Shown here piece after piece: positions 5,601 to 11,600 of a DNA stretch of 64,000 bases. This stretch comes from Escherichia coli (GTDB lineage: Bacteria > Pseudomonadota > Gammaproteobacteria > Enterobacterales > Enterobacteriaceae). Location: assembly GCF_050920415.1 (NCBI RefSeq), contig NZ_CP169309.1. One strand, 5' to 3'. The first letter of the stretch is position 1. Every line of letters starts with the position of its first letter. The position numbers were made by a program.

Positions 5601-8600
5601 TCATCAAGGCTTCCTTAGGGAAGCCTTGTTACGTTATCGTGCCATCAAATCTGTCGTAACTGCGCCTCAACATACAAATAGCCAATCCCCAGCACCTGCT
5701 GTGCGCGGCTTAATTGCCCAAAGCCAATCTGTGTCGCTTTCACGCTCGGTCCTTCGTCACGGTCGAACGGGTTAAATCCTGTCTGGCGAATAATGGAATT
5801 AAGCCAGTTCTCACCAAAGGCGCAGCTGCGACCATACAGCCAAATCTGATTAATATTGAGGATATTGAGGAAGTTATACAGACTCAAACCAATGGCGTTG
5901 GCACTGCGGTCAACCCAGCTGGTGATCCACGGTTCTCCACTCTGCCAGGCAGCGATTAATTGTGCGGTTGTCAATTTTTCAGGATCAAGCTGAGTATTAA
6001 CCGGTTGTGATTTTAGCCATACTCGCGCCTGTTTTTTTAATGCGCTTAACGAGGCGACGGTTTCCAGGCAGCCATAACGTCCACAGTCGCAGGCGACGCC
6101 ATCCGGATTAACGATGGTGTGACCAATCTGTCCGCTACCATACAAACTGCCGCGATAAATTTGCTCGTTAATCACGAACGACGAGCCAATACCGTAATCA
6201 ACGTTGATCACGCAGAAATCCCGTCCTTGCGAATTATTTTGCCATTTCTCCGCCAGCGCCAGCATCACGCAGTCATTATCGACCATCACCCGAATGCCCA
6301 GCTTCTCTTCCAGCAGATACTTCACCTCAACCGGTGTTGTCCACGGCGCTTGCGGCATGGTTTGCGACACGCCAGTCACTGGATCAACCTGACCGTGGAT
6401 AGCCAGCGCCAGGTTGATGGTACGGTCTGGCCACAGTTTACGATGGCGATGCCAGCATTTTTCGATTTCGGACAACAGAGCCTGCGGTGTCGGTGCATCA
6501 ATCTGAAAATATTCAAATTCGCCTTTCGGACTTAAACAGGCATTAGCGACCTGACACTCAATGCTGGTGGGCGTCACGTTCAGGCACAGCGTCCAGTCAC
6601 CTTCCGGCGCGATCAGCCATGTACCGCTACTGTGCCCGCGCGTCTGGCTTTCATCGTCGATATTCACCACCCGTTTTTCGCTTTCCAGCTCCTGCAAAAT
6701 ATTACTGACCGCTGGAATTGAAATTTGCGCCAGCCGGGCCAGCGTTGATTTATTGGCGCGCTTTTGCCGGTACAGCAGTTCCAGAATCACGCATTTGTTA
6801 TGGTGGCGAATCTGTTGATTATTAATGCAGGCTCTCATCTTCACTAAACCTTGTTTAGTTAATTGCGTGATTATTCCGCGAAAACATTGCCAGATTGTTC
6901 AATACACTGCCACAAATCTTTTAATTCAGTATGTCTTGTTAATATTGAGGGCACTATGACTCCAGTAAAAGTGTGGCAAGAGCGCGTTGAGATCCCGACT
7001 TATGAAACCGGGCCGCAGGATATACACCCTATGTTCCTGGAAAATCGCGTTTATCAGGGATCGTCCGGCGCGGTTTATCCCTACGGCGTGACCGATACGC
7101 TGAGCGAGCAGAAAGTCCTGAAATCCTGGCAAGCGGTGTGGCTGGAAAACGACTATATCAAAGTGATGATCCTGCCGGAGTTGGGCGGTCGGGTGCATCG
7201 CGCTTGGGATAAAGTGAAACAGCGCGATTTTGTCTATCACAATGAGGTGATTAAACCGGCGCTGGTAGGGCTATTGGGGCCGTGGATTTCGGGCGGGATT
7301 GAGTTTAACTGGCCACAACACCATCGCCCGACTACCTTTATGCCCGTTGATTTCACCCTCGAAGCCCATGAAGACGGCGCACAGACGGTGTGGGTCGGCG
7401 AAACGGAGCCGATGCACGGTTTACAGGTGATGACCGGTTTCACACTACGCCCTGACCGGGCGGCGCTGGAGATTGCCAGCCGCGTCTATAACGGCAATGC
7501 CACGCCGCGTCATTTCTTGTGGTGGGCCAACCCGGCAGTGAAAGGTGGCGAAGGGCATCAGAGCGTTTTCCCGCCGGATGTAACGGCGGTGTTTGATCAC
7601 GGCAAACGGGCTGTTTCAGCTTTCCCTATCGCTACCGGCACTTACTACAAAGTGGACTACTCCGCCGGAGTGGATATTTCTCGCTATAAAAATGTGCCAG
7701 TGCCGACTTCGTATATGGCCGAAAAATCGCAGTACGATTTTGTTGGCGCATGGTGTCACGATGAAGATGGCGGTTTGCTACACGTTGCCAACCACCACAT
7801 CGCGCCAGGTAAAAAACAGTGGAGCTGGGGACACAGTGAATTCGGCCAGGCGTGGGATAAGAGCCTGACCGACAATAACGGCCCGTATATCGAACTGATG
7901 ACGGGTATTTTTGCCGATAACCAGCCCGATTTTACCTGGCTTGATGCTTACGAAGAGAAGCGTTTCGAGCAGTATTTCCTGCCTTATCATTCTCTGGGCA
8001 TGGTGCAAAACGCCTCCCGCGATGCGGTGATTAAACTCCAGCGTAGCGAGCGGGGGATTGAGTGGGGGCTGTATGCCATCTCCCCGTTGAACGGATACCG
8101 GCTGGCGATCCGCGAAATCGGCAGATGCAACGCGTTACTCGACGATGCCGTGGCTCTGACACCAGCGAACGCCATTCAGGGCGTGTTGCATGGTATCAAT
8201 CCTGACAGACTAACCATTGAACTCTCCGATGCTGACGGCAATATCGTACTGAGTTATCAGGAACATCAGCCGCAAGAGTTGCCGTTGCCGGACGTCGCCA
8301 AAGCGCCACTGGCAGCACAAGAGATTACCAGTACAGATGAAGCCTGGTTTATCGGGCAGCATCTGGAGCAATATCATCATGCCAGCCGTTCCCCCTTCGA
8401 TTACTACCTGCGCGGCGTGGCGCTGGACCCGCTGGATTATCGCTGTAACCTGGCGTTGGCGATGCTGGAATATAACCGCGCCGACTTCCCGCAAACGGTG
8501 GCGTATGCCACTCAGGCGCTGAAACGCGCACATGCGTTGAACAAAAACCCGCAGTGCGGACAGGCGAGTTTAATTCGCGCCAGTGCTTACGAACGTCAGG

Positions 8601-11600
8601 GGCAATATCAACAAGCCGAAGAGGATTTCTGGCGTGCGGTCTGGAGCGGCAACAGTAAAGCGGGTGGCTATTATGGTCTGGCACGGCTGGCTGCGCGTAA
8701 TGGTAACTTTGACGCTGGTCTGGATTTTTGCCAACAAAGTCTTCGCGCCTGCCCAACCAATCAGGAAGTGCTTTGCCTGCATAACCTGCTGCTGGTGTTA
8801 AGTGGTCGTCAGGACAACGCGCGTTTGCAGCGAGAGAAGTTGCTGCGTGATTATCCGCTGAACGCCACTCTGTGGTGGCTGAACTGGTTCGATGGTTGTA
8901 GCGAATCTGCCCTCGTACAGTGGCGAGGTCTGTGTCAGGGACGCGACGTTAACGCCCTGATGACCGCCGGGCAACTGATTAACTGGGGCATGCCCGCTCT
9001 GGCGGCAGAGATGCTGAACGCACTGGACTGTCAGCGCACGCTACCGCTTTACCTGCAAGCCAGCTTGCTGCCGAAAGCTGAACGCGGCGAACTGGTCGCA
9101 AAAGCCATTGATGTTTTCCCGCAGTTTGTCCGTTTCCCTAATACGCTGGAAGAGGTTGCGGCGCTGGAGAGTATTGAAGAGTGCTGGTTTGCCCGGCATT
9201 TACTGGCCTGTTTCTACTACAACAAGCGCAGCTACGGCAAAGCAATTGCCTTATGGCAACGTTGCGTTGAGATGTCGCCGGAGTTTGCCGACGGCTGGCG
9301 TGGGCTGGCAATCCATGCGTGGAATAAGCAGCATGATTATGAACTGGCCGCGCGTTATCTTGATAGTGCTTATCAGCTTGCGCCGCAGGATGCTCGTCTG
9401 CTTTTTGAACGGGATTTGCTGGATAAGCTAACCGGAGCCGCACCGGAGAAACGACTGGCTCGTCTGGAAAATAATCTGGAAATTGCTCTGAAACGCGACG
9501 ACATGACCGCAGAATTGCTCAATTTGTGGCATCTCACTGGTCAGGCGGACAAAGCGGCAGACATTCTCGCCACGCGTAAATTCCATCCGTGGGAAGGCGG
9601 AGAAGGGAAAGTCACCAGTCAGTTTATCCTCAACCAGTTGTTACGCGCCTGGCAACACCTTGATGCCAGACAACTGCAGCAGGCCAGCGAACTGCTTCAT
9701 GCCGCGCTGCACTATCCGGAGAATTTAAGCGAAGGCCGTTTACCGGGGCAAACTGACAACGACATCTGGTTCTGGCAGGCGATATGTGCCAAAGCCCAGG
9801 GCGATGAAACTGCAGCAACGCGCTGTTTACGTCTGGCGGCGACTGGCGATCGCACCATTAACATTCACAGTTATTACAACGATCAACCGGTTGATTATCT
9901 CTTCTGGCAAGGGATGGCGTTGCGATTACTGGGCGAACAAAAAACCGCACAGCAACTGTTTAGTGAAATGAAACAGTGGGCGCAAGAGATGGCAAAAACC
10001 AGTATCGAAGCGGATTTCTTTGCCGTCTCGCAACCTGACTTGTTATCGCTGTATGGCGATTTACAACAGCAACATAAAGAAAAATGCCTGATGGTGGCGA
10101 TGCTGGCGGCCGCGGGATTAGGCGAGATTGCGCAATACGAATCTGCTCGCGCTGAATTGACGGCGATTAATCCGGCCTGGCCGAAAGCGGCATTATTCAC
10201 CACCGTGATGCCTTTTATTTTTAACCGCGTTCACTAAACCTTATTAACTGTAATATTTGAGCGGCACGCGCTGCCGCTCACGCTCAAATAATTAAAATAA
10301 GCCGTTGTAAATAAAAACCCTACAGGAGGCACTATGCCTAAAAAAATGAGAACAACCCGTAATCTATTATTAATGGCTACGCTATTAGGTAGCACACTAT
10401 TTGCCAACGCTGCGGATAAAGAAATGACCATTGGCGCAATATACCTTGATACCCAGGGATATTACGCTGGAGTGCGCCAGGGCGTTCAGGATGCGGCAAA
10501 AGATTCTTCAGTACAGGTACAGTTAATTGAAACTAACGCCCAGGGCGATATTTCGAAAGAAAGTACCTTTGTTGATACCCTCGTGGCGCGTAATGTCGAT
10601 GCCATTATTTTGTCGGCAGTGTCCGAAAATGGCAGTAGCCGCACCGTTCGCCGCGCCAGTGAGGCGGGTATTCCGGTGATTTGCTACAACACCTGTATTA
10701 ATCAAAAGGGTGTCGATAAATATGTCTCGGCATATCTGGTTGGCGACCCGCTGGAATTTGGTAAAAAACTGGGTAACGCTGCCGCCGATTATTTTATTGC
10801 CAACAAAATTGACCAGCCGAAAATTGCCGTCATCAATTGCGAAGCCTTTGAAGTTTGTGTGCAACGACGTAAAGGGTTTGAAGAAGTATTAAAAGCCCGC
10901 GTTCCCGGCGCGAAAATTGTCGCTAATCAGGAAGGGACTGTTTTAGATAAAGCGATTTCTGTTGGTGAAAAATTGATTATCTCCACGCCAGATCTCAACG
11001 CCATTATGGGGGAATCGGGGGGAGCGACACTCGGCGCGGTAAAAGCGGTACGTAATCAAAATCAGGCTGGAAAAATTGCCGTTTTCGGTTCGGATATGAC
11101 CACTGAAATTGCACAGGAACTGGAAAATAACCAGGTGCTGAAAGCGGTAGTGGATATTTCCGGTAAGAAAATGGGCAATGCTGTTTTCGCGCAAACATTG
11201 AAGGTTATCAATAAACAAGCCGACGGTGAAAAAGTGATTCAGGTGCCAATCGATCTCTATACCAAAACGGAAGACGGTAAACAGTGGCTGGCAACGCACG
11301 TTGATGGTCTGCCCTAATCGCTGATTCGCAGAGGTCCCTATGTTCACGGCAACAGAGGCAGTTCCGGTAGCAAAAGTGGTGGCAGGAAATAAGCGTTACC
11401 CCGGCGTCGTTGCGCTGGATAACGTTAACTTTACGCTCAATAAAGGCGAAGTTCGCGCGCTGTTAGGCAAAAACGGTGCGGGAAAATCGACCCTCATTCG
11501 AATGCTTACCGGTAGCGAACGTCCGGATAGCGGTGATATCTGGATTGGCGAGACGCGACTGGAAGGCGACGAAGCTACGCTGACTCGCCGTGCCGCTGAA

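What the first reader, a model, noticed from the sequence alone, without database searches (positions are those of the whole stretch)
6956..10237. YphG: a 1093-aa cytoplasmic protein co-transcribed with a sugar transporter
A protein of this size with no signal peptide, an N-terminal beta-rich domain of about 400 aa and a long C-terminal TPR-like helical array is unusual in a sugar-utilisation operon. Its 96-bp spacing to yphF and the hairpin at 10258-10280 suggest partial transcriptional separation. Candidate roles are a non-canonical glycoside hydrolase or lyase, or a scaffold.
Basis: inference. Interest (0 to 1): 0.45.

Follow-up and report, generated by a model that had tools for sequence, protein, structure and literature searches.

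The report
YphG: mutarotase-like enzyme with TPR clamp
The 1093-residue protein is real and is E. coli YphG, a still-uncharacterised cytoplasmic protein whose N-terminal domain is a remodelled sugar mutarotase fold clamped by a long helical repeat, and whose relatives sit next to sugar importers and true mutarotases in three bacterial phyla, so it is most likely an unrecognised sugar-converting enzyme.

Summary
Window 6956-10237 (+) encodes E. coli YphG, 1093 aa, with no signal peptide or membrane segment. It lies 96 bp upstream of yphF, and a 9-bp hairpin sits at 10258-10280. RefSeq calls it only 'DUF5107 domain-containing protein'. I found no functional study.

AlphaFold (pLDDT 94.7) gives three parts:
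- a beta supersandwich (residues 1-345)
- a small beta-sandwich (357-435)
- a 34-helix TPR solenoid (460-1092)

The family is large and conserved across Gammaproteobacteria, Bacteroidota and Bacillota. It sits beside monosaccharide-type transporters, one of three kinds of cytoplasmic mutarotase, and exported GH2, GH36, GH97 and GH95 glycosidases.

So the protein is typical of sugar operons, not unusual in them. I read it as a cytoplasmic sugar-converting enzyme acting on the imported, probably galacto-configured, sugar. Reaction and substrate are not shown. A glycosidase role or a sugar-sensing scaffold role is not excluded.

The parts
5645..6838 (-). yphH, a ROK-family (NagC/Mlc-like) regulator transcribed divergently from yphG
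   Evidence: ORF. RefSeq annotation (the annotated start corresponds to 6838). NCBIfam NagC/Mlc-like hits below cutoff. Described as the 'third uncharacterized ROK repressor' of E. coli (PMC4288165). A ROK gene lies in the locus in 14 of 15 gammaproteobacterial loci and is immediately upstream and divergent in 12 of them.
6843..6874 (.). Putative YphH operator: palindrome ACTAAAC-ctt-GTTTAGT (6843-6859) followed by ATTGCGTGA (6866-6874)
   Evidence: Inverted repeat. The same element is conserved next to the ROK gene in Aeromonas, Klebsiella, Serratia, Budvicia, Cedecea and Hafnia loci. Binding by YphH is inferred, not tested.
6956..10237 (+). yphG coding sequence, 1093 aa
   Evidence: Pfam DUF5107 at residues 39-324, E 3.3e-55. 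dN/dS 0.056 against the common E. coli allele.
6956..7990 (+). N-terminal supersandwich domain (residues 1-345), a divergent member of the aldose-1-epimerase superfamily and the presumed catalytic domain
7319..7324 (+). His122-His123 of the motif GGIEFNWPQHHRP, invariant in the 22-sequence N-domain alignment and at least 90% conserved in the 68- and 116-sequence alignments
   Evidence: H123 is also kept in 5cd6.
7892..7894 (+). Glu313, invariant, aligned with the catalytic general-base Glu of mutarotases (the LEpQ motif)
   Evidence: Invariant. hhalign column pairing. The spacing from the Glu to the NQPDF/HPNF motif is the same as in GalM-type neighbours.
8024..8260 (+). Small beta-sandwich spacer domain (residues 357-435), poorly conserved
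   Evidence: AF2 secondary structure. Median identity 20%.
8333..10231 (+). TPR-like solenoid of 34 helices (residues 460-1092)
   Evidence: AF2. Pfam TPR_16 at 499-560 and 754-813. Foldseek hits to OGT, Ctr9, Ski3 and consensus TPR proteins. The whole architecture is retained at 18% identity with TM 0.79/0.84.
9581..9607 (+). Conserved non-helical loop FHPWEGGEG (residues 876-884) within the solenoid, a candidate active-site or interface loop
   Evidence: F876, E880, G881 and G882 are 84-97% conserved. The model shows a loop there. A role at the active site is inferred only.
10232..10250 (.). Second copy of the operator-like element, CACTAAAC-ctt-ATTAACTG, overlapping the yphG stop codon
   Evidence: The 13-mer TTCACTAAACCTT occurs twice in the window against 0.03 expected. 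It matches the operator consensus of other genera and is present at the same place in E. albertii and two Enterobacter loci.
10258..10280 (+). GC-rich stem-loop (9 bp, 5-nt loop) without a U-run, between yphG and yphF
   Evidence: The stem is conserved in another E. coli lineage while the alternative outer pairing is not. Hairpins of differing sequence occupy the same position in 13 of 18 gammaproteobacterial loci. It is not listed as terminator-like.
10334..13874 (+). yphF (10334-11317, periplasmic binding protein), yphE (11340-12851, fused double ATPase) and yphD (12876-13874, permease): a CUT2-type monosaccharide ABC importer
   Evidence: The best NCBIfam relatives are AlsB/MglB/RbsB, AraG/XylG/AlsA/MglA and RbsC/AraH. 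PDB relatives are ribose-, galactose- and galactofuranose-binding proteins.
13907..15001 (+). yphC, a Zn-dependent polyol or threonine dehydrogenase-like oxidoreductase, present only in the E. coli-type version of the cluster
   Evidence: Found in 5 of 80 loci.
15013..15885 (+). yphB, a canonical aldose 1-epimerase and the conserved partner of yphG
   Evidence: PDB 3NRE, E 1.9e-202. It keeps the mutarotase motifs LHGDGW, GWHPYF and CLEP. YphB-type genes occur in 12 of 15 gammaproteobacterial loci.

Best explanation
YphG is a cytoplasmic sugar-converting enzyme and the catalytic partner of the adjacent importer (YphFED) and the mutarotase YphB. Its N-terminal domain descends from the aldose-1-epimerase fold. 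It keeps the general-base glutamate (E313) but replaces the two catalytic histidines with its own invariant set (H122, H123, H215, K86, K100, K287, N192 and others). A 17-hairpin TPR solenoid is packed rigidly against this domain as a clamp or lid, rather than serving as a free protein-protein interaction module.

Proposed sequence of events, with inferred steps marked:
- Exported glycosidases, or other community members, release a free aldose.
- That aldose is imported by a monosaccharide-type transporter.
- YphB equilibrates its anomers.
- YphG binds one anomer in the mutarotase-derived pocket and performs a cofactor-independent acid/base conversion at or next to the anomeric centre. I favour a ring-opening-coupled isomerisation or epimerisation (inferred).
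- The product enters ordinary central pathways.

The neighbours in other phyla (GH2 beta-galactosidase-like, GH36 and GH97 alpha-galactosidase-like, GH95, GalM) point to a galacto- or L-arabino-configured sugar (inferred).

Shown: the fold, the remote homology, the retained Glu, the cytoplasmic location, the strong purifying selection and the conserved synteny. Not shown: the reaction, the substrate and the role of the TPR domain.
For: Structure:
- The AF2 full-length model has pLDDT 94.7 and pTM 0.92, with three domains.
- hhalign of broad DUF5107 against mutarotase profiles gives probability 92.8%, E 3.9e-7, over 259 columns. E313 pairs with the catalytic Glu and N192 with the Asn of the TNH motif.

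Conservation:
- 101 of 350 N-domain positions are at least 80% conserved. Median identity to YphG is 48% in the N-domain against 26% in the solenoid.
- The N-domain is 54-58% identical between E. coli and Bacteroidota or Paenibacillus.
- dN/dS is 0.056 between two E. coli alleles.

Architecture:
- It is fixed. Full-length alignments extend down to about 28% identity, and an AFDB relative at 18% identity superposes with TM 0.79/0.84.
- Residues 21-40 and 320-335 lose confidence when the solenoid is removed.

Synteny over 80 loci:
- A sugar-porter MFS occurs in 38 of 43 Bacteroidota loci. Across all 80 loci it is directly adjacent in 32 and on the same strand in 31, with 24 of the 31 gaps between -3 and 40 nt.
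- An MFS or CUT2 ABC transporter occurs in 13 of 15 Gammaproteobacteria loci.
- A mutarotase of three different subfamilies (YphB-type 12, GalM-type 9, DUF4432-type 8) occurs in 29 of 80 loci. In Paenibacillus it is translationally coupled, with a 4-nt overlap.
- No other recurrent cytoplasmic catabolic enzyme is found.

Compartments:
- The N-terminal hydrophobic 10-mer used as a signal-peptide proxy is absent in 79/80 DUF5107 proteins, 12/12 YphB, 8/9 GalM and 8/8 DUF4432.
- It is present in 37/44 GH2, 6/6 GH97 and 13/17 sulfatase neighbours.

Transporter types: CUT2 and sugar-porter relatives in NCBIfam are all monosaccharide systems.
Against: - No activity, ligand or phenotype is known. Literature and curated family libraries are silent.
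- The two catalytic His positions of mutarotases do not align with conserved His residues, so even the ring-opening chemistry is uncertain. That part of the alignment is of low confidence.
- I could not inspect model coordinates. The positions of E313, the His and Lys residues and the FHPWEGGEG loop relative to a pocket are therefore untested.
- More than 30 conserved polar residues is more than a monosaccharide pocket needs.
- Some Bacillota loci pair the gene with CUT1 (oligosaccharide) ABC systems and cytoplasmic GH36.
- A periplasmic short paralogue ends a purely glycosidase operon.
- These last three points fit a glycoside-cleaving role equally well.
Confidence: 0.45

Rival explanations
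1. YphG is a non-canonical glycoside hydrolase, phosphorylase or lyase. A small glycoside, for example a galactoside, is imported. YphG cleaves it in the cytoplasm, using the supersandwich as catalytic domain and the solenoid to enclose the aglycone or second sugar. YphB then equilibrates the released anomer.
For: - Pairing of a mutarotase with a glycosidase is a familiar operon logic (LacZ/GalM and YihQ/YihR; my own knowledge).
- There are many conserved polar residues, including Lys, Arg, Glu and His.
- Bacillota contexts include CUT1 oligosaccharide ABC systems and GH36.
- The periplasmic BDI_1685-like paralogue is the last gene of a GH43-CBM32-SGNH-GH97-GH3-GH97-GH123 operon.
Against: - There is no match to any GH or PL family in Pfam or NCBIfam.
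- The closest folds are free-sugar mutarotases, well above GH and PL domains.
- The partner transporters in 51 of 58 gammaproteobacterial and Bacteroidota loci belong to monosaccharide families.
- In Bacteroidota, exported exo-glycosidases already lie upstream of the importer.
- An N-domain identity of 54-58% across phyla is unusually high for a glycosidase family.
Confidence: 0.25
2. YphG is not an enzyme. It is a sugar-binding sensor or scaffold: the mutarotase-like domain binds the imported sugar, and the TPR solenoid relays this to a protein partner (the regulator YphH or AraC, or the transporter).
For: - TPR solenoids usually mediate protein-protein contacts (established knowledge).
- A regulator gene is present in most loci (ROK in 14 of 15 gammaproteobacterial loci, AraC in 45 of 80), usually beside the gene and divergently transcribed.
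- The mutarotase catalytic His pair is not retained.
- The gene is tightly coupled to the MFS gene.
Against: - The putative partner is not conserved. The same highly conserved protein sits with ROK or AraC regulators, and with ABC or MFS transporters.
- ROK and AraC regulators normally bind sugars themselves (established knowledge).
- An invariant Glu sits at the catalytic position, and there is a dense set of invariant His, Lys, Asp and Asn residues.
- The solenoid is rigidly packed on the N-domain rather than free.
- The gene is coupled to mutarotases.
Confidence: 0.12
3. YphG is simply a very large mutarotase or tautomerase. It interconverts anomers or ring forms, for example pyranose and furanose, of a sugar that YphB does not handle.
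For: The fold and the retained catalytic Glu. The transporter protein YphF is distantly related to the galactofuranose-binding YtfQ, among others.
Against: - A canonical mutarotase is encoded alongside in 29 of 80 loci, which would be redundant.
- The His pair needed for the known mechanism is not conserved.
- A 650-residue solenoid and about 100 conserved N-domain positions are hard to justify for a reaction that small mutarotases perform.
Confidence: 0.12

Closest known systems
BDI_1685 of Parabacteroides distasonis (PDB 5CD6, structural-genomics entry 'TPR-domain containing protein')
   Different: It is 580 aa with a short helical part (Pfam BDI_1685-like_C). Its alignment starts at about residue 33, which is consistent with export. 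It lacks H122, K286 and the NQPDF motif. It sits at the end of a glycosidase operon rather than next to an importer. It is also functionally uncharacterised.
Aldose 1-epimerases (GalM 1L7J, B. subtilis GalM 3MWX/4BZE, YeaD 2HTA, hexose-6-phosphate mutarotase 2CIQ, E. coli YphB 3NRE)
   Different: There is no Pfam Aldose_epim hit. The two catalytic His positions are not conserved. YphG has about 30 additional invariant polar residues. It is fused to a beta-sandwich and a 630-residue TPR solenoid. It co-occurs with, rather than replaces, true mutarotases.
Enzymes that catalyse on a mutarotase-like supersandwich (GH186 OpgG/OpgD beta-1,2-glucanases; PL4 rhamnogalacturonan lyase). Their catalytic roles are recalled from my own knowledge.
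   Different: They are much weaker structural matches than the mutarotases. There is no sequence relationship. They are periplasmic or secreted, act on polymers, and have no TPR domain.
TPR-plus-catalytic-domain enzymes such as O-GlcNAc transferase
   Same: A long TPR superhelix covalently attached to a carbohydrate-active catalytic domain. The OGT TPR region is among the best Foldseek and sequence matches to residues 527-643.
   Different: In OGT the TPR precedes a GT-B domain and selects protein substrates. In YphG the solenoid follows a mutarotase-like domain and appears to be packed on it. No protein substrate is indicated.
Transporter, glycosidase or isomerase, and mutarotase modules (for example yihO-yihQ-yihR, lac/gal with galM, fucP-fucI-fucU; my own knowledge)
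   Same: The same operon logic: an importer, one converting enzyme, an anomer-equilibrating enzyme and a divergent repressor.
   Different: The converting enzyme here belongs to no characterised family, and the substrate is unknown.

Membership tests
Pfam DUF5107 (PF17128) | Significant match to the family HMM | tested here: met
   E 3.3e-55, residues 39-324, model positions 5-281 of 310. RefSeq gives the same name.
Aldose 1-epimerase family (Pfam Aldose_epim, GalM-type) | Galactose-mutarotase supersandwich fold | tested here: met
Aldose 1-epimerase family (Pfam Aldose_epim, GalM-type) | Sequence membership (family HMM match) | tested here: not met
   No Aldose_epim hit in Pfam even at E <= 10. 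Narrow profile comparisons are not significant. Only broad profiles give superfamily-level homology (probability 92.8%, E 3.9e-7).
Aldose 1-epimerase family (Pfam Aldose_epim, GalM-type) | Catalytic general-base Glu (Glu304 in L. lactis GalM; established knowledge) | tested here: met
   Invariant E313 pairs with the Glu of the LEpQ motif in the profile alignment. The spacing to the following motif is the same.
Aldose 1-epimerase family (Pfam Aldose_epim, GalM-type) | Catalytic His pair (His96 and His170 in L. lactis GalM; established knowledge) | tested here: not met
   In one search the TNH histidine aligns with P193 and the HGG histidine with M129 or a gap. The conserved H122/H123 lie 6-7 residues upstream. 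Alignment confidence is low in these loops, and a structural superposition was not possible.
Aldose 1-epimerase family (Pfam Aldose_epim, GalM-type) | Mutarotase activity | not testable with these tools
   Needs polarimetry or NMR on purified protein.
TPR repeat proteins | Helix-turn-helix repeats forming a solenoid, with TPR profile matches | tested here: met
   34 helices between residues 460 and 1092. TPR_16 E 8e-5 and 2e-4. Consensus-TPR PDB chains score E 2.7e-34 to 1e-8. Foldseek hits to OGT, Ctr9 and Ski3.
CAZy glycoside hydrolase or polysaccharide lyase families | Sequence match to a known GH or PL family | tested here: not met
   None in Pfam or NCBIfam. In the PDB sequence search only 5cd6 and TPR proteins match.
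CAZy glycoside hydrolase or polysaccharide lyase families | Glycosidic bond cleavage activity | not testable with these tools
   Needs enzyme assays.
Rho-independent terminator (for the 10258-10280 hairpin) | GC-rich stem-loop | tested here: met
   9-bp stem with 6 GC pairs and a 5-nt loop. The fold z-score of the whole gap is -2.2.
Rho-independent terminator (for the 10258-10280 hairpin) | U-run immediately 3' of the stem | tested here: not met
   The tail is CGCTCAAATA, with 2 T in 10 nt. It is not reported by the terminator scan.
yph operon (co-transcription of yphG with yphFEDCB) | Same strand, short gaps, and no promoter or terminator consensus in between | tested here: inconclusive
   The gaps are 96, 22, 24, 32 and 11 nt. 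There are no consensus sites in 10238-10333. However, a conserved hairpin and a second operator-like site are present. One microarray study lists yphF and yphG in the same responding set (PMC2868799). Transcript mapping is needed.

The most novel reading that the evidence does not exclude
DUF5107/YphG is the founding member of a new carbohydrate-active enzyme class: a mutarotase-derived catalytic domain closed by a TPR clamp. It would carry out a so far unassigned cytoplasmic step, either an isomerisation or epimerisation of a galacto- or arabino-configured sugar or the cleavage of a small galactoside. That step would be required downstream of GH2, GH36, GH97 and GH95 glycosidases in gut and environmental Bacteroidota, Paenibacillus and Enterobacterales. 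It would define the substrate of the orphan yph operon of E. coli.
Probability: 0.35. Interest if true: 0.75.

Novelty: new variant of a known kind. Interest (0 to 1): 0.5.

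Why it matters
yphG is present in all but a handful of the 5,426 complete E. coli genomes searched (most of the locus in 5419). It is under strong purifying selection. It belongs to a family of more than 1,100 protein clusters (at 50% identity) that is embedded in polysaccharide-utilisation loci of gut and marine Bacteroidota. Yet it has no assigned function.

The analysis turns 'large TPR protein of unknown function' into a specific, testable proposition:
- a mutarotase-derived active site, with Glu313 and His122/His123 as the first residues to mutate
- a short list of candidate sugars, namely galacto- or arabino-configured aldoses and small galactosides
- defined partners: the binding protein YphF, the mutarotase YphB and the repressor YphH

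If the protein is an enzyme, it would add a new catalytic use of the mutarotase fold. It would also fill a gap in models of sugar scavenging by Enterobacteria and of glycan breakdown by Bacteroidota.

Tried and rejected
- **Literature.** Searches for yphG, DUF5107, PF17128, IPR033396, 5CD6/BDI_1685 and the neighbouring yph genes found no functional study. yphG appears mainly as a Klebsiella PCR marker. Induction of YphF on levoglucosan occurs together with many catabolite-sensitive binding proteins, so I took it as non-specific.
- **NCBIfam on YphG.** It gave only sub-threshold TPR relatives.
- **hhalign with narrow profiles.** YphB-type only, or GalM-type only, was not significant or gave a spurious alignment. 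Only broad profiles on both sides gave a credible alignment.
- **AFDB50 fold search.** It returned no functionally named relatives.
- **Hairpin as canonical terminator.** Rejected for lack of a U-run. Rfam has no family for the yphG-yphF gap.
- **CRP site.** I looked by eye for a CRP site in the conserved ATTGCGTGA-N-GCGCA region upstream of yphG. The right half does not fit the consensus, so I dropped it.
- **Further recurrent cytoplasmic catabolic partner (kinase, isomerase, aldolase).** The remaining operon mates are almost all singletons. The few I annotated are GH-like or unknown.
- **A 742-aa operon mate in Mucilaginibacter.** It has only a marginal alpha-galactosidase similarity.
- **Coordinates.** I could not obtain model coordinates, so pocket geometry and N-domain/solenoid contacts could not be measured.

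Full report
**1. Observation**

The window carries an ATG-started ORF at 6956-10237 (+) of 1093 codons. It is 100% identical to annotated yphG of E. coli MFDS1022581. Most of the queried yphG locus (6700-10400) is found in 5419 of 5426 complete E. coli genomes, always on the chromosome.

The local gene order is yphH (ROK regulator, minus strand), then divergently yphG, yphF, yphE, yphD, yphC and yphB. So yphG is the first gene of the plus-strand group, not an appendage of it.

- The protein has no hydrophobic N-terminus and no membrane segment.
- The gap to yphF is 96 bp.
- The hairpin reported at 10258-10280 is a perfect 9-bp stem with a 5-nt loop.

**2. What the protein is**

Pfam finds DUF5107 (residues 39-324, E 3e-55) and two significant TPR_16 matches. 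NCBIfam has no family for it. RefSeq, as of September 2026, names it only 'DUF5107 domain-containing protein'.

An exhaustive search of 1.8 billion cluster representatives finds 1140 clusters at E <= 1e-30. Many are aligned end to end at 28-46% identity, so the full 1100-residue architecture is old and conserved.

AlphaFold2 on a 68-sequence alignment gives a confident model (pLDDT 94.7, pTM 0.92):
- a beta supersandwich (residues 1-345)
- a small beta-sandwich (357-435)
- 34 helices (460-1092)

Foldseek against the PDB returns the structural-genomics entry 5CD6 first. After that come TPR solenoids and, for the N-domain, galactose mutarotases.

AFDB50 adds no named relative. It does show a DUF5107 protein of 18% identity with the same global shape (TM 0.79/0.84).

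**3. Relation to mutarotases**

Narrow profile comparisons were not significant. Broad ones were. I compared DUF5107 including the 5CD6 branch against three mutarotase subfamilies taken from the neighbouring genes. hhalign gave 92.8% probability, E 3.9e-7, over 259 columns.

In that alignment:
- The invariant E313 pairs with the catalytic Glu of the LEpQ motif.
- N192 pairs with the Asn of the TNH motif.
- The segment after the Glu has the same spacing in both families: IELMTGIFADNQPDF against LECQYYPDSPTHPNF.
- The two catalytic histidines of mutarotases align with non-conserved positions.

DUF5107 instead has its own invariant or near-invariant polar set: E64, N65, D85, K86, K100, E116, N118, H122, H123, R124, N179, H215, K286, K287, D306, Y311, N322, Q323 and D325.

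I conclude that the domain is a divergent superfamily member with a remodelled active site. It is not a canonical mutarotase.

Conservation is striking:
- 101 of 350 N-domain positions are at least 80% conserved over 116 sequences from several phyla.
- Only 49 of 643 positions in the solenoid reach that level. They include polar residues Q472, Y483, D491, R782 (invariant), E818 and D848, and the loop FHPWEGGEG.
- Residues 21-40 and 320-335 are confident only when the solenoid is present. This suggests that they pack against it.
- Between two E. coli alleles, dS is 0.25 and dN/dS is 0.056.

**4. Genomic context**

In Aeromonas, Klebsiella oxytoca and Serratia the cassette is: ROK, divergent from DUF5107, then a sugar-porter MFS, then Aldose_epim. 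More distant relatives pair with CUT2 ABC systems and Aldose_epim.

A scan of one genome per species found more than 595 relatives. I clustered the neighbours of 80 loci and annotated them. The loci come from Gammaproteobacteria, Bacteroidota, Bacillota, Planctomycetota and Spirochaetota.

| Neighbour | Occurrence |
|---|---|
| XylE-like sugar-porter MFS | 48 of 80 loci; 38 of 43 Bacteroidota |
| MFS or CUT2 ABC | 13 of 15 Gammaproteobacteria |
| AraC regulator | 45 loci |
| ROK regulator | 14 of 15 Gammaproteobacteria |
| Cytoplasmic mutarotase | 29 loci, in three subfamilies: YphB-type 12, GalM-type 9, DUF4432-type 8 |
| GH2 (BT4151-like beta-galactosidase) | 30 loci |

- Across all 80 loci the MFS gene is directly adjacent in 32 and on the same strand in 31. 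Of those 31 gaps, 24 lie between -3 and 40 nt.
- In Paenibacillus the DUF4432-type mutarotase gene overlaps the DUF5107 gene by 4 nt.
- Other recurrent neighbours are GH36, GH97, GH95, GH30, sulfatases, an SGNH esterase and SusC/D-sized genes.
- No kinase, isomerase or aldolase recurs.

A simple N-terminal hydropathy test (a hydrophobic 10-mer as a signal-peptide proxy) separates two groups:
- The proxy is absent, suggesting a cytoplasmic location: DUF5107 79/80, YphB 12/12, GalM 8/9, DUF4432 8/8.
- The proxy is present, suggesting export: GH2 37/44, GH97 6/6, sulfatases 13/17.

The picture is consistent. Exported glycosidases release a sugar. A monosaccharide-type transporter imports it. DUF5107 and a mutarotase act on it in the cytoplasm.

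The glycosidase families point to galacto- or L-arabino-configured sugars. This is an inference from family names, not a result.

The short, apparently exported 5CD6-like branch sits at the end of a GH43-CBM32-SGNH-GH97-GH3-GH97-GH123 operon.

**5. Mechanism**

I favour a cytoplasmic, cofactor-independent sugar-converting enzyme. It would use the mutarotase-derived pocket with E313 as base, and the TPR solenoid as a fixed clamp. It would work in series with YphB on the imported aldose.

The general claim is an enzyme of sugar catabolism with a mutarotase-derived catalytic domain. I hold it at about 0.75. The specific reaction class, a ring-opening-coupled isomerisation or epimerisation of a monosaccharide, is much less certain.

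Rivals:
- a non-canonical glycosidase or lyase for a small glycoside, supported by some Bacillota CUT1 contexts and by the periplasmic paralogue
- a non-catalytic sugar sensor or scaffold
- a plain giant mutarotase

The evidence for and against each is given in the structured fields. None is excluded by what I could compute.

**6. The intergenic features**

The hairpin lacks a U-run and is not terminator-like by the scan. Its stem is conserved in another E. coli lineage while the alternative outer pairing is not. A GC-rich stem-loop of different sequence follows the stop codon of the orthologue in 13 of 18 gammaproteobacterial loci.

The palindrome ACTAAAC-N3-GTTTAGT next to yphH, with the adjacent ATTGCGTGA, is conserved across genera. 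A second copy (CACTAAAC-ctt-ATTAACTG) overlaps the yphG stop codon. The shared 13-mer occurs twice in the window against 0.03 expected.

They do not prove it. One microarray study lists yphF and yphG in the same responding gene set.

**7. Comparison and novelty**

The closest known entity is the uncharacterised 5CD6 protein. The closest characterised family is aldose 1-epimerase, to which YphG belongs at superfamily level only. No GH or PL membership criterion that I could test is met.

The gene and its DUF are already catalogued, so the object is not new. What is new is the functional frame:
- the mutarotase ancestry with a retained Glu
- the fixed TPR clamp
- the cross-phylum linkage to monosaccharide importers, mutarotases and galactosidase-type enzymes

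I rate it as a new variant of a known kind, with interest 0.5. It is not astonishing. It is a widespread, conserved orphan protein whose function is now directly testable.

Noticed in passing
window 6956-10237, compared with 4188-5447: This strain carries a rare yphG allele. It is about 94% identical in nucleotides to the allele of some 5400 E. coli genomes, and only 18 genomes are at least 95% identical. Flanking glyA is 95-99% identical to nearly all genomes. dS is 0.25 and dN/dS 0.056 against strain E12, which suggests an old or imported allele kept under purifying selection.
   Followed up: partly
window 6843-6874 and 10232-10250: A palindromic element (ACTAAAC-N3-GTTTAGT, with adjacent ATTGCGTGA) lies next to yphH and is conserved across Enterobacterales and Aeromonas. 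A second copy overlaps the yphG stop codon. These are probably a pair of YphH operators.
   Followed up: partly
window 10318-10324; loci L002, L004, L015-L017, L021, L022, L025, L026, L028: A CC(C/T)TACA box lies between the post-yphG hairpin and the start codon of the downstream transporter gene in 10 of 12 genera, whether that gene encodes an ABC binding protein or an MFS permease. There is no Rfam match, and its meaning is unknown.
   Followed up: partly
L016, L017, L019 (Enterobacter sp., Enterobacteriaceae RIT691, Budvicia): Some clusters carry both transporter types in one string: yphF-E-D, yphC, yphB and then the sugar-porter MFS. This suggests that the two cassette versions are exchangeable modules for one substrate.
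   Followed up: no
L014 (E. coli SCPM-O-B-8794); proteins P0002, P0030, P0048; hit H25: A minority of E. coli genomes have split or truncated yphG genes, for example an ORF ending after about 840 residues, or an annotation as 'tetratricopeptide repeat protein' covering 58% of the gene. This indicates occasional pseudogenisation.
   Followed up: no
L096 10001-11822: The short, apparently exported DUF5107 branch (5CD6-like, with Pfam BDI_1685-like_C) closes an operon of GH43, CBM32, SGNH, GH97, GH3, GH97 and GH123 genes. In this contig it is split into two ORFs.
   Followed up: partly
L094 6350-8578 (Mucilaginibacter lappiensis): A 742-residue protein with no Pfam hit and only a marginal alpha-galactosidase similarity (E 1e-3) heads the AraC-controlled operon 742aa-MFS-DUF5107-GalM. 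It may be another uncharacterised glycosidase.
   Followed up: partly
proteins P0020 and P0119 (Klebsiella): Klebsiella species carry two YphG lineages, 74% and 54% identical to the E. coli protein. The 54% one is in the MFS-type cassette at the glyA locus. The relationship of the other to the PCR-marker 'yphG' of K. pneumoniae was not examined.
   Followed up: no
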